41,868 nucleotides of DNA from a virus (taxonomy: Duplodnaviria; Heunggongvirae; Uroviricota; Caudoviricetes), in the IMG/VR virus record IMGVR_UViG_2974481312_000001, positions 1 through 41,868 of that record; one strand, written 5' to 3'. The notes under the pieces were generated by a model. That model ran no database searches. It was not told the origin of the DNA and saw nothing but the letters and a program-made list of their open reading frames with translations. The stretch's first letter is position 1, and each line of letters opens with the position of its first letter. Position numbers and translations under genes: made by a program. This document shows, piece by piece, positions 39,326 to 40,137 of the stretch.

Positions 39326-39574
39326 AAACGGCAACCTCCTTTAAGGCTCAAGATTCGCTGGCGCAGACTCTTTAGAATCTTTTGCCGTGTAGTTATTTCC
39401 GATTAGCTTGGCCTAGTGCGCACTAAGCATCCCGTAATTTTCTTCACCTAGTTGTTTAGCGAATAGAGTAGTATCGCGTTGGGTAATTACAATGTAATAC
39501 CCCCCGGATAAAACACCGCGGACTAACTGACCCTTCTTAAACATGATTCATCCTCTTGTTTTGCTAACCTGCAA

Positions 39575-39602
39575 TAATAGTACTCTATTATATTTGGTTA
39601 CG
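39575..39602 (+). repeat. Conserved element TAATAGTACTCTATTATATTTGGTTACG (copy B)
   Basis: Near-identical to 38530..38557; its first 20 nt are identical to the promoter element at 3832..3851. Confidence 0.8.
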
Positions 39603-40137
39603 CAAGTGCCTTTTTATTCTTGTCTCCCGTCCCTCGTCAGGTAAGCGATTGCCGTAAGGCAAGTGCGTTAATCCCTGAGTAGTAGACTAAGAATCTTTCG
39701 GCATTTCAGTTACGTTGCCGTTGTGGTTCTTCAACCAGGGTTGTGCCTTTATTCTTATTACCTGGTAACTAAAGGGCAGGCCTTAAGCCTGCCCACTAAT
39801 CGTTACATTTTACGGTTGCGAATCTACGGCACATCAAGGAAATCAGATACTTAAGAGATATGCTGCCGATGAGAATATAGCTCGCCCAAGGCAGTTCAGA
39901 TACTAAGGAAGGAAGTTACTGAGTTTTAAGTTTGCGGGTTTCAGTAAGCCTTAACGCGTGTCCGCTTAGGGCGGACCCGCTAAGCTCTCACAAAGTGAAA
40001 CAGAAACTTAAGTAACTTGAAGTTACAAGAGACAACTTACACGAAAAAAATAAGAATGTCAATAGGTGCGTTTATAGTTGATTTCCCATTATGCCGTGGG
40101 TATACTTGCTTTACTAACTGAGATGGGGGGTTTGATA

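What the first reader, a model, noticed from the sequence alone, without database searches (positions are those of the whole stretch)
39326..40137. About 800 bp divergent non-coding control region with palindromes, hairpins and direct repeats
The region between the leftward early genes and the rightward replication operon contains a perfect 15-bp palindrome GTAACTTGAAGTTAC (about 40012-40026), a GC-rich hairpin GGGCAGG..CCTGCCC (about 39773-39793), a hairpin GCTTAG..CTAAGC (about 39962-39985), direct repeats GTGCCTTTTTATTCTTGTC / GTGCCTTTATTCTTATTAC (about 39607 and 39742) and CAGATACTTAAG / CAGATACTAAGG, plus one copy of the TAATAG element. No ORF of convincing quality is present. This is the most likely location for the origin of replication and the early bidirectional promoters, and possibly for small RNAs.
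Basis: seen in the sequence. Interest (0 to 1): 0.45.

Follow-up and report, generated by a model that had tools for sequence, protein, structure and literature searches.

The report
Phage divergent promoter region, structured leader
This is the switch region of a Jersey-type Salmonella phage, where two back-to-back host-type promoters fire in opposite directions and the leftward transcript starts with long hairpins and an optional, unusually conserved terminator cassette; nothing here shows that it is the replication origin.

Summary
The window is a Jerseyvirus genome, f18SE/f2SE-like.

The region is not 800 bp of non-coding DNA. 39413-39544(-) is a small gene, so the true intergenic stretch is 39545-40137.

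Comparison with Jerseyvirus and E. coli Kagunavirus relatives shows:
- Two back-to-back sigma70-type promoters with invariant hexamers and fixed 17-nt spacers: P_R (40078-40106, +) and P_L2 (40062-40034, -).
- A ~105-nt hairpin (39913-40018) just downstream of the P_L2 start. It keeps its shape through compensatory changes and apex swaps.
- A 137-nt insertion/deletion cassette (about 39708-39850) carrying the GC hairpin, which reads as a leftward terminator. It is 93-94% identical between genera, versus 61-64% for the start of the helicase-primase gene, yet some Jerseyviruses lack it and others carry unrelated cassettes.
- A third promoter, P_L1 (39605-39577, -), carrying the genome-wide TAATAG palindrome.

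The 15-bp palindrome is within chance and Jersey-specific. There are no DnaA boxes and no exceptional AT-rich stretch, and cassette type does not track helicase type. The GC-skew minimum simply follows gene orientation.

The bidirectional promoters are supported. A ~260-nt leftward non-coding RNA is plausible. The origin claim is unsupported but not excluded.

The parts
39413..39544 (-). First small gene of the leftward operon (43 aa, MFKKGQLVRG...). Its Shine-Dalgarno sequence AAGAGGA lies at 39551-39557.
   Evidence: ORF list; annotated in f2SE, fSE1C and JD01; PHROG 12538 E=1.2e-7. The N-terminus is conserved in relatives, while the C-terminus is mosaic and is frameshifted in AG11.
39577..39605 (-). 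Promoter P_L1: -35 TTGCGT (39605..39600), 17-nt spacer, -10 TACTAT (39582..39577). It overlaps the palindrome TAATAGTACTCTATTA (39575-39590).
   Evidence: Read from the sequence. The same layout is found in Kagunavirus as TTGCAC-N17-TACTAT. The palindrome has 5 perfect copies in the genome, each at a promoter-like site. It matches the PHIRE consensus tgAATAGTa-ccTATTat-T reported for fBC-Eco01 (PMC9825357).
39606..39707 (.). Jersey-specific spacer. It holds an A/T-rich tract upstream of P_L1 (direct-repeat copy 1, 39606-39624), a small hairpin TTGCC-GTAA-GGCAA (39649-39662) and a degenerate copy of the P_L1 palindrome.
   Evidence: Only 38-39% of positions match Kagunavirus. Alignments.
39708..39850 (-). 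Type A cassette. Its left arm AGTTACGTTGCCGTTGTGGTTCTT (39708-39731) is shared with types B and C. The 137-nt insertion/deletion (39714-39850) is bounded by TCAGTTAC (39706-39713) and TCAGATAC (39843-39850).
   Evidence: 93-94% identical between Jerseyvirus and Kagunavirus, against 61-64% for the start of the helicase-primase gene. Precisely absent from L028 (SETP7), L030, L031 and L033. Replaced by unrelated type B (K1G) and type C (RP180) middles. One-nucleotide indels show it is not coding. One copy per genome. Absent from E. coli genomes and plasmids.
39743..39832 (-). ~90-nt rod-like fold of the cassette: GUGCC/GGCAC, AUUC/GAAU and GUAAC/GUUAC stems capped by the GC hairpin.
   Evidence: RNAalifold consensus on 25 distinct type A sequences, -31.7 kcal/mol. 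All three one-sided changes in these stems give G.U on the minus strand, one variant (A.C at the outermost pair) breaks pairing, and there is one compensatory pair.
39767..39794 (-). t_L, a leftward terminator-like hairpin: GGGCAGGC (39794..39787 on the minus strand), loop, GCCUGCCC, then UUUAGUU (39773..39767).
   Evidence: Flagged by the terminator scan on the minus strand only. Shows a C-G to U-A compensatory change, and A-U to G.U in L012. The type C hairpin is also flagged on the minus strand. In type B the outer stem is followed by UUUU on the minus strand, but the scan does not flag it.
39843..39912 (.). Conserved spacer holding the repeats CAGATACTTAAG (39844) and CAGATACTAAGG (39897), an IHF-like core AATCAGATACTTA (39841-39853) and the purine run AAGGAAGGAAG.
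   Evidence: 83-89% identical between genera and also present in Jerseyviruses that lack the cassette. Repeat clustering. It contains the only WATCARNNNNTTR match in the genome.
39913..40018 (-). ~105-nt imperfect hairpin with base AAGTTAC/GTAACTT and apex GTCCGC-TTAGG-GCGGAC (39960-39976). It starts about 8 nt downstream of the predicted P_L2 transcription start.
   Evidence: z-scores are -3.7 (minus strand) and -4.3 (plus strand) against shuffles. All 28 distinct variants fold the same way, although the sequence is only 47-56% identical and four unrelated apexes occur. 97.4% of cells are paired against 93.4% in shuffles (0 of 500 shuffles reach it), with 3 compensatory pairs.
40012..40026 (.). 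The 15-bp palindrome GTAACTTGAAGTTAC, at about +1 to +15 of P_L2. It overlaps the base of the hairpin.
   Evidence: Present, within chance and Jersey-specific. RP180 and ST20 carry a different palindrome at the same place relative to their P_L2.
40034..40062 (-). Promoter P_L2: -35 TTGACA (40062..40057), 17-nt spacer, -10 TAAGTT (40039..40034). The predicted start is about 40027.
   Evidence: Annotated as an RpoD-type promoter in AG11. The -35 is invariant and the -10 is TAAGTT or TAAGGT in 28 of 28 sequences; the spacer varies in sequence but is always 17 nt. Equivalent leftward promoters occur in K1G, RP180, ST20 and fEgEco19.
40078..40106 (+). Promoter P_R: -35 TTGATT, 17-nt spacer, -10 TATACT. 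The predicted start is about 40113. It drives the HTH_17 gene (40138-40308), a 77-aa gene (40305-40538) and the helicase-primase gene (from 40595).
   Evidence: Promoter scan. Both hexamers are invariant in 28 of 28 sequences and the spacer varies. Pfam HTH_17 and AAA_25 hits.

Best explanation
The interval is the divergent transcription-control region of a virulent Jerseyvirus. The phage encodes no RNA polymerase in the annotation inspected (AG11), so host sigma70 RNA polymerase is assumed.

Proposed mechanism:
1. Two back-to-back promoters sit with 15 bp between their -35 hexamers.
2. P_R reads rightward into the HTH_17 gene, a 77-aa gene and the helicase-primase gene, that is, the replication arm.
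3. P_L2 reads leftward into an untranslated RNA of roughly 260 nt. This RNA begins with a ~105-nt hairpin (39913-40018), continues through a conserved repeat-bearing spacer, and in this phage enters a 137-nt cassette.
4. The cassette folds into a second rod whose GC-rich tip plus U-tract acts as an intrinsic terminator (t_L, 3' end near 39767).
5. Most P_L2 transcripts would therefore end as a non-coding RNA or leader. Read-through transcripts, together with transcripts from a third promoter P_L1 (39605-39577), express the small leftward genes, followed by the lysis, terminase and structural genes.
6. P_L1 carries the genome-wide TAATAG-N4-CTATTA palindrome, which I read as a shared operator.

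What is shown: the conserved promoter hexamers and their geometry, the conserved hairpin architecture with compensatory changes, the orientation of the terminator-like hairpin, the insertion/deletion nature of the cassette and its extreme conservation.

What is inferred: actual transcription starts and ends, which strand is the functional one, terminator efficiency, and what the leader or cassette does. Candidate roles are transcript stabilisation or processing, insulation of P_L1, or attenuation of entry into the late-like arm.
For: - Promoters: hexamers are invariant and spacers are a constant 17 nt but variable in sequence in 28 distinct sequences from two genera. The AG11 annotation marks P_L2. 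The scan finds P_R. Equivalent back-to-back pairs occur in all other intergenic variants.
- Gene order on the leftward arm is small genes, then holins and endolysin, then terminase and structural genes.
- Long hairpin: z = -3.7. All variants give the same fold despite 47-56% identity and four different apexes. 97.4% of cells are paired, with 3 compensatory pairs.
- Terminator: flagged on the minus strand only, with a compensatory change and a G.U variant. The type C hairpin is also flagged on the minus strand.
- Minus-strand bias of one-sided changes: in the cassette rod all three one-sided changes are G.U-compatible on the minus strand, while one other variant breaks a pair there. In 11 Jersey sequences an A.C pair on the plus strand is a G.U pair on the minus strand. 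Apex variants TATCCGC..GCGGAC and TTCCCGC..GCGGAA behave the same way. The minus-strand fold is the more stable one in 14 of 15 Kagunavirus variants.
- There is no ORF of 30 aa or more on the minus strand between the P_L2 start and the terminator, and 1-nt indels occur in the cassette.
- No tRNA and no Rfam family matches.
Against: - No transcript data exist, so all starts and ends are predictions.
- Strand evidence is mixed. In Jerseyvirus the plus-strand fold of the long hairpin is the more stable one in 9 of 13 variants. Two plus-strand stems in the cassette (GGUUC/GAAUC and UAAUCGU/ACGGUUG) use G.U pairs that would be mismatches on the minus strand. One variant in the cassette rod fits the plus strand better.
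- The t_L U-tract is short and interrupted (UUUAGUU), and the type B cassette is not flagged as a terminator.
- A terminator alone does not explain why 130 nt are 93-94% conserved across genera.
- The leaders of K1G, RP180 and ST20 are not more structured than shuffles.
- Inverted repeats would look the same if they acted in DNA.
Confidence: 0.6

Rival explanations
1. Origin of replication. The hairpins and the AGTTAC/ACTTAAG repeats would act in DNA, as iterons and extrudable inverted repeats where the adjacent helicase-primase, or the HTH_17 or 77-aa protein, loads. Transcription from P_R and P_L2 might activate it.
For: - The region lies directly upstream of the replication operon.
- The 12-mer repeats are clustered beyond chance.
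- The inverted repeats are equally stable on both strands and the strand signals are mixed.
- The loop of the GC hairpin is inverted in phage SS10. I read this as possible intrastrand template switching at an extruded hairpin.
- The local cumulative GC-skew minimum is at 39635.
Against: - There is no DnaA box. AT-richness peaks at 0.75 in a 40-bp window, which several other sites in the genome exceed.
- The repeats are few, irregularly spaced and partly just the two arms of the hairpin.
- The cassette is absent from viable Jerseyviruses.
- Cassette types A and B each occur with both helicase-primase variants, so there is no co-variation between site and protein.
- GC skew changes sign wherever gene orientation changes, so the minimum is expected without an origin.
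- The long hairpin sequence is free to vary as long as pairing is kept. That pattern fits structure better than sequence-specific protein binding.
Confidence: 0.2
2. The cassette is a separate accessory non-coding module with three interchangeable types (A, B, C), exchanged between Jerseyvirus and Kagunavirus by recombination. It would be kept for a sequence-specific job of its own, such as a regulatory or anti-defence RNA, a decoy, or a site for a phage or host protein, rather than merely as a terminator.
For: - It is 93-94% identical across genera, more than any neighbouring gene.
- It shows presence/absence polymorphism with 8-nt flanking direct repeats.
- Three unrelated middles share a 24-nt left arm and usually the ACGGCA right arm.
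- Recombinant cassettes exist, and AG11 carries a Kaguna-like left flank.
- It occurs only in these phages, not in host genomes or plasmids.
Against: - There is no promoter of its own on either strand (reading).
- There is one copy per genome, always at the same locus, so it does not behave as a transposable element.
- The TGCCGT/ACGGCA inverted repeat shows no covariation. It is disrupted in L050 and L043 and missing in L103 and L150.
- High identity could reflect recent recombinational spread rather than selection.
- No Rfam family matches.
Confidence: 0.15
3. A lambda-like late switch. P_L2 plus t_L would be the equivalent of lambda P_R'-t_R' (6S RNA), and a phage antiterminator made from the P_R operon would let polymerase read through into the lysis, terminase and structural genes.
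For: - The gene order downstream (lysis, then terminase, then head and tail genes) matches a lambdoid late operon.
- The layout is a promoter, then a ~260-nt untranslated RNA, then a terminator.
- A -10-like TAACTT/TATCTT sequence sits at the start of the transcript, and the TAAGTT hexamer is repeated at about +18 (reading).
Against: - No Q, N or other antiterminator homologue appears in the annotation or in the Pfam and PHROG hits of the adjacent genes.
- A further promoter, P_L1, lies between the terminator and the genes.
- Phages without the cassette have no terminator there.
- Similar promoters with the TAATAG palindrome occur further down the arm.
Confidence: 0.1

Closest known systems
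Divergent early control regions of lambdoid phages (lambda/P22 P_L and P_R with operators, with a Cro-type HTH gene first in the P_R operon)
   Same: Closely spaced sigma70 promoters fire in opposite directions. A small HTH gene comes first on the replication side. Palindromes lie at promoters.
   Different: The phage is strictly virulent, and no repressor or integrase is annotated. There are no tripartite operators. The promoters are back-to-back rather than separated by an immunity region. The palindrome at P_L2 is not conserved.
Lambda P_R'-t_R' late leader (6S RNA)
   Same: A promoter is followed by a short untranslated transcript that ends at an intrinsic terminator, upstream of lysis and morphogenesis genes.
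   Different: No Q-like protein or Q-binding element has been identified. An extra promoter lies downstream of the terminator. The terminator cassette is optional.
HK022 put RNAs and other promoter-proximal cis-acting leader hairpins, including RNase III processing hairpins of T7 early RNA and the lambda N leader
   Same: Conserved stem-loops lie in the first ~100-250 nt of an early transcript, upstream of a terminator.
   Different: put consists of two ~35-nt stem-loops with defined features, whereas here there are two long rods of ~90-105 nt. No functional test is possible with these tools. No sequence similarity was found, and no Rfam hit.
Iteron-type origins (lambda ori, P4 ori/crr, the IncQ oriV with ssiA and ssiB hairpins used by a RepA-type helicase)
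   Same: Short repeats and inverted repeats lie next to a gene for a RepA-like (AAA_25) helicase-primase.
   Different: There is no regular iteron array, no AT-rich unwinding element and no DnaA box. Site and protein do not co-vary. The cassette is dispensable.
PHIRE-detected 'phage promoter' motif of Kagunavirus fBC-Eco01 (tgAATAGTa-ccTATTat-T; PMC9825357)
   Same: It is the same palindrome as the TAATAG element at 39575-39590 and at four other sites in this genome.
   Different: The paper assigns the motif to a phage RNA polymerase. No such polymerase appears in the annotation I inspected (AG11). Here each copy overlaps the spacer or -10 of a sigma70-like promoter, so I read it as an operator or promoter core.

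Membership tests
sigma70-type promoter (P_R, P_L2, P_L1) | -35 and -10 hexamers close to TTGACA and TATAAT, spaced 17 +/- 1 nt | tested here: met
   P_R is TTGATT-17-TATACT. P_L2 is TTGACA-17-TAAGTT and P_L1 is TTGCGT-17-TACTAT (AG11 annotation).
sigma70-type promoter (P_R, P_L2, P_L1) | Conservation of the hexamers and the spacing, but not the spacer sequence, among relatives | tested here: met
   28 distinct sequences from two genera. For P_L1.
sigma70-type promoter (P_R, P_L2, P_L1) | A mapped transcription start | not testable with these tools
   No transcriptome of a Guernseyvirinae phage was found in the literature searches.
Intrinsic (Rho-independent) terminator (t_L) | A GC-rich stem of 5 or more bp and a loop of 3-8 nt, immediately followed by a U-rich tract on the transcribed strand | tested here: met
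   On the minus strand there are 9 pairs (7 G-C), then UUUAGUU. The plus strand has no U-tract. The type C cassette is also flagged on the minus strand. Type B is not flagged.
Intrinsic (Rho-independent) terminator (t_L) | The stem is maintained by compensatory change | tested here: met
   C-G changes to U-A in 4 of 25 sequences, and A-U changes to G.U in one.
Intrinsic (Rho-independent) terminator (t_L) | Measured termination | not testable with these tools
   Needs Term-seq or a reporter assay.
Structured RNA leader or non-coding RNA | A secondary structure conserved with covariation | tested here: met
   For the long hairpin, 97.4% of cells are paired and no shuffle of 500 reaches this, with 3 compensatory pairs and the same fold in all variants.
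Structured RNA leader or non-coding RNA | Strand-specific G.U pattern | tested here: inconclusive
   The minus strand is favoured by the one-sided changes and by 14 of 15 Kagunavirus folds. The plus-strand fold is the more stable one in 9 of 13 Jerseyvirus variants, and two stems work only on the plus strand.
Structured RNA leader or non-coding RNA | Membership of a curated RNA family | tested here: not met
   No Rfam hit reaches the gathering score. The best match is Hrs12 at 20.5 bits against a threshold of 70, E = 1.3.
Iteron/theta-type replication origin | An array of 3 or more regularly spaced direct repeats | tested here: inconclusive
   4 imperfect 12-mers lie within 175 bp, which is significant clustering. 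They are irregularly spaced, and two of them are arms of the hairpin.
Iteron/theta-type replication origin | An AT-rich unwinding element and DnaA boxes | tested here: not met
   No TTWTNCACA match with 1 mismatch or fewer. Maximum AT content is 0.75 per 40 bp, and many sites elsewhere in the genome reach 0.80-0.82.
Iteron/theta-type replication origin | Co-variation of the site with its initiator protein | tested here: not met
   Cassette types A and B are each found with both helicase-primase N-terminal variants.
Iteron/theta-type replication origin | Autonomous replication activity | not testable with these tools
   Needs a plasmid ori assay or marker-frequency analysis.
MITE-like mobile element (the cassette) | Terminal inverted repeats and a target-site duplication | tested here: inconclusive
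   TGCCGT and ACGGCA are inverted, but the right copy lies ~20 nt inside the end. The flanking TCAGTTAC and TCAGATAC are equally explained by a microhomology-mediated deletion.
MITE-like mobile element (the cassette) | Several copies at different loci, or copies in host genomes | tested here: not met
   One copy per genome at one locus. None in 5,426 E. coli genomes or in plasmids. The 17-mer hits in GTDB are chance matches plus one contaminant.

The most novel reading that the evidence does not exclude
The 137-nt cassette, and its type B and C counterparts, could be a horizontally exchanged accessory non-coding module of Guernseyvirinae. It would be an RNA or DNA element with a sequence-specific function, such as a regulatory or anti-defence RNA, a decoy, or a cis-acting antitermination or processing element. 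Its sequence is held more tightly than any neighbouring gene, yet it can be swapped or lost.
Probability: 0.15. Interest if true: 0.65.

Novelty: new member of a known kind. Interest (0 to 1): 0.35.

Why it matters
Jersey-type phages are widely used as Salmonella biocontrol and therapy candidates, yet the literature searches here found no transcript maps for them.

This analysis gives testable positions for the three promoters that start the replication arm and the lysis/structural arm. It identifies a conserved structured leader. It also flags a 137-nt non-coding cassette that is more conserved between Salmonella and E. coli phage genera than the genes around it.

These are useful landmarks for engineering, for example choosing safe insertion sites or promoter swaps, and for working out how a phage without its own RNA polymerase times its genes. 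It is otherwise an ordinary kind of control region. The origin of replication remains unlocated.

Tried and rejected
- Rfam at gathering score and at E <= 10 on the window and five related loci, and a tRNA scan: nothing found.
- A conserved small ORF in the cassette (39723-39854 on the plus strand; annotated in Bas76 and Schulenburg): rejected, because 1-nt indels in the loop and the T-run break every frame.
- A closing stem TGCCGT/ACGGCA around the cassette: no covariation. It is disrupted in L050 and L043 and the right arm is missing in L103 and L150.
- A transposable element: single locus, with no copies in hosts or plasmids.
- A 17-mer scan of metagenome and GTDB contigs: mostly chance hits. 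Only 16 loci were true relatives.
- RNAalifold on a MAFFT alignment of the long hairpin: it failed in the apex, because four unrelated apex sequences cannot be aligned. I replaced it with per-sequence folds and a hand-drawn structure for the alignable stems.
- A universal long hairpin in all Kagunavirus variants: not found. The leaders of K1G, RP180 and ST20 are not more structured than shuffles.
- An internal promoter for the cassette on either strand: no conserved candidate.
- DnaA boxes and AT-rich tracts: none.
- AlphaFold on the 77-aa protein as a possible origin binder: pLDDT 49.7, so unusable. PDB sequence searches of the 77-aa and HTH_17 proteins were uninformative.
- Literature searches for transcriptome or origin data on Jerseyvirus or Kagunavirus: none found.
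Full report
**Identity and layout**

The 1.6 kb around the finding is 100% identical to Salmonella phages f2SE and fSE4S, and 92-95% identical to many other Jerseyviruses. The window length, 41,868 bp, equals that published for f18SE (PMC4599075).

On the minus strand, an ASCH-family gene starts at 39325 and a 43-aa ORF occupies 39413-39544. On the plus strand lie an HTH_17 gene (40138-40308), a 77-aa gene (40305-40538) and an AAA_25 helicase-primase gene from 40595.

In the fully annotated relative AG11, the leftward arm runs through small genes, holins and endolysin, NinH, terminase and the structural genes. 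The rightward arm is the replication arm.

**Checking the observation**

The '800 bp non-coding' description needs trimming.
- The 43-aa ORF has a strong Shine-Dalgarno sequence and is annotated in relatives. It hits PHROG 12538, and its N-terminus MFKKGQLVRG is conserved in relatives even where the rest is mosaic or frameshifted.
- The strictly intergenic DNA is therefore 39545-40137.
- The perfect 15-bp palindrome is not unusual. The genome holds seven palindromes with 7-nt arms against 5.6 +/- 2.4 in shuffles. It is replaced by a non-palindromic sequence in Kagunavirus.
- The CAGATACT-type repeat is clustered beyond chance. There are 10 matches with up to 2 mismatches genome-wide against 2.75 expected, and four of them lie in 39844-40018. 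Three of the four ACTTAAG copies in the genome are here.

**Promoters**

I aligned 28 distinct sequences from Jerseyvirus and the WAO78-type Kagunaviruses, which are 69-70% identical in this part. This gives two clean footprints.
- P_R is TTGATT (40078-40083), 17 nt, TATACT (40101-40106).
- On the other strand, P_L2 is TTGACA (40062..40057), 17 nt, TAAGTT (40039..40034; TAAGGT in Kagunavirus).

In both promoters the hexamers are invariant, while the 17-nt spacers differ in sequence but never in length. P_L2 is the promoter annotated in AG11, and P_R is found by the scan. All other intergenic variants (K1G, RP180, ST20, fEgEco19) also carry a leftward promoter back-to-back with a P_R-like one.

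A third promoter, P_L1 (TTGCGT-17-TACTAT, 39605..39577), precedes the 43-aa gene. It has the same form in Kagunavirus, TTGCAC-17-TACTAT. It overlaps the 'TAATAG element', which is the palindrome TAATAG-N4-CTATTA. This palindrome has five perfect copies in the genome (10 with up to 2 mismatches against 1.6 expected), and each perfect copy overlaps the spacer or -10 of a promoter-like site. The same motif was reported for Kagunavirus fBC-Eco01 as a PHIRE 'phage promoter' (PMC9825357). P_R and P_L2 lack it.

**The long hairpin**

Positions 39913-40018 form a ~105-nt imperfect hairpin that begins about 8 nt after the predicted P_L2 start. The 268-nt stretch from 40027 to 39760 folds far better than shuffles on both strands, with z = -3.7 and -4.3.
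- The sequence is only 47-56% identical between genera, and the apex is occupied by four unrelated self-complementary sequences. Even so, every one of the 28 variants folds into the same architecture.
- On the stems that can be aligned, 97.4% of cells pair against 93.4% in shuffles, and none of 500 shuffles reaches this. Three pairs show compensatory changes, for example G-C in 18 sequences, A-U in 5 and U-A in 3.
The stem that actually covaries is GTCCGC-TTAGG-GCGGAC, seen as TTCCGC/GCGGAA in other phages.

**The conserved cassette**

Positions 39708-39842 are 93-94% identical between this Salmonella phage and E. coli Kagunaviruses. For comparison, the HTH_17 gene is 82-87% identical, the 77-aa gene 66-68% and the start of the helicase-primase gene 61-64%. 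In some Kagunaviruses this block is the only part of the intergenic region that aligns at all.

It is an insertion/deletion cassette.
- L028 (SETP7), L030, L031 and L033 read GGCATTTCAGTTAC|TTAAGAG. They lack 39714-39850 precisely, between the 8-nt repeats TCAGTTAC and TCAGATAC.
- K1G-like and RP180-like phages carry unrelated middles (types B and C) behind the same 24-nt left arm. Each middle has its own strong GC hairpin.
- One-nucleotide indels exclude a coding function.
- The 25 distinct type A sequences share a ~90-nt rod capped by GGGCAGGC/GCCUGCCC, with a consensus energy of -31.7 kcal/mol and one compensatory pair.
- On the minus strand the cap is followed by UUUAGUU and is flagged as terminator-like. 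The type C hairpin is flagged the same way. The type B hairpin is not.
- The cassette is single-copy. It is absent from 5,426 E. coli genomes, from PLSDB plasmids and from GTDB genomes, apart from one contaminated assembly.
- Recombinant cassettes, and a Kaguna-like left flank in AG11, show exchange between the genera.

**Which strand?**

Several points favour the minus strand, meaning the P_L2 transcript.
- The promoter sits immediately upstream.
- The U-tract has the right orientation.
- In the cassette rod all three one-sided substitutions give G.U on the minus strand, while one other variant breaks a pair there.
- A hairpin pair that is A.C on the plus strand in 11 Jersey sequences is G.U on the minus strand, and it becomes G-C or A-U elsewhere.
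- Two apex variants behave the same way.
- The minus-strand fold is the more stable one in 14 of 15 Kagunavirus variants.

Other points go against it. In Jerseyvirus the plus-strand fold is the more stable one in 9 of 13 variants. Two plus-strand stems in the cassette rely on G.U pairs. I therefore treat the minus-strand RNA reading as likely, not shown. A role in DNA for the inverted repeats cannot be excluded.

**Origin of replication**

Nothing specific supports it.
- There are no DnaA boxes, and AT content is unexceptional.
- The repeats are few and irregular, and two of them are hairpin arms.
- The cassette is dispensable in viable phages.
- Cassette types A and B each occur with both variants of the helicase-primase N-terminal half.
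- The long hairpin tolerates wholesale sequence change as long as pairing is kept.
- The local cumulative GC-skew minimum at 39635 coincides with the switch in gene orientation. Skew flips at every such switch in this genome.

Points that keep the idea alive are the position next to the replication operon, the clustered repeats, a unique IHF-like core at 39841-39853 and the loop inversion of the GC hairpin in SS10. I give it about 0.2. It is compatible with the promoter interpretation rather than exclusive of it.

**Most likely mechanism**

Host RNA polymerase starts at P_R for the replication arm and at P_L2. The P_L2 RNA is an untranslated leader of about 260 nt made of two long rods separated by a conserved repeat-bearing spacer. 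In this phage most of it probably ends at t_L, near 39767. Read-through transcripts plus P_L1, which shares an operator-like palindrome with at least four other promoters, express the leftward genes.

What the rods do is inferred only. Candidate roles are protection of the 5' end, RNase III processing, insulation of P_L1, or attenuation of entry into the lysis and morphogenesis arm.

A lambda P_R'-t_R'-like antitermination switch is an attractive analogy, because the gene order matches. However, no antiterminator is recognisable, and a promoter lies beyond the terminator.

**Novelty and verdict**

I found no description of these elements in the literature available here, other than the predicted promoter in AG11 and the PHIRE motif. 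No Rfam family matches.

The region is a new, reasonably well-footprinted example of a familiar kind of phage control region. The one puzzling item is the cassette. It is more conserved than the genes around it, yet it is replaceable and dispensable. A terminator role does not explain that level of conservation. Recent recombinational spread or an independent sequence-specific function are the alternatives.

Interest is moderate to low, at 0.35.

Noticed in passing
window 3832-3847, 8042-8057, 19651-19666, 38530-38545, 39575-39590 (weaker copies at 1229 and 36242): The palindrome TAATAG-N4-CTATTA has five perfect copies, and each overlaps the spacer or -10 of a sigma70-like promoter (for example TTGACA-17-TATATT at 3832 and TTGCAT-17-TATTAT at 19651). 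It looks like a shared operator or promoter core defining a regulon. It is the same motif as the PHIRE consensus published for Kagunavirus fBC-Eco01.
   Followed up: partly
L205 (NZ_JACVEL010000022.1, Taishania pollutisoli CZZ-1 scaffold22), about 1600-3280: A genome assembly labelled as the bacterium Taishania pollutisoli contains Jerseyvirus DNA. The cassette is 100% identical, and identity is 92.8% over window 39324-41000. This is probably phage contamination of the assembly.
   Followed up: no
whole window: GATC is strongly avoided. There are 11 sites against about 164 expected from base composition.
   Followed up: no
L215 (Salmonella phage SS10, MK761198) 3518-3538, matching window 39774-39794: The loop of the GC hairpin is inverted (CTTAA becomes TTAAG) while the stem is unchanged. 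I suggest this may reflect template switching at an extruded hairpin.
   Followed up: partly
window 39413-39544; L032/AG11: The first small leftward gene keeps its N-terminus MFKKGQLVRG in the Jerseyvirus relatives compared. Its C-terminal part is mosaic, and in AG11 it is frameshifted relative to this phage.
   Followed up: partly
L038, L051, L129, L165 (Kagunavirus contigs), just downstream of P_R: An extra ~137-bp gene (ATGGTTACTTTGACAGAAGAA...) is inserted between P_R and the HTH_17 gene, while the promoter and leader stay unchanged.
   Followed up: no
L059-L063 (IMG/VR Kagunavirus contigs): In these loci only residues ~335-424 of the 424-residue helicase-primase query match (80-83%), and nothing matches upstream of that. 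The upstream part of the protein therefore appears to be replaced. Both helicase variants occur with cassette types A and B.
   Followed up: partly
L050 (IMG/VR contig), cassette: The segment GTGCCTTTATTC has been converted to GTGCCGTAGATTC. This makes it a perfect complement of the right-hand GAATCTACGGCAC segment, while that right-hand copy has itself acquired a G-to-A change. It suggests gene conversion between the two arms of the cassette rod.
   Followed up: no
L025 (RP180) about 1755-1775; L007 (ST20) about 1780-1800: A different palindrome (AGCTCAG-N-CTGAGCT in RP180) overlaps the -10 and start site of the leftward promoter. This is the same relative position as the Jersey palindrome at 40012-40026, which hints at operators of different specificity.
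   Followed up: no
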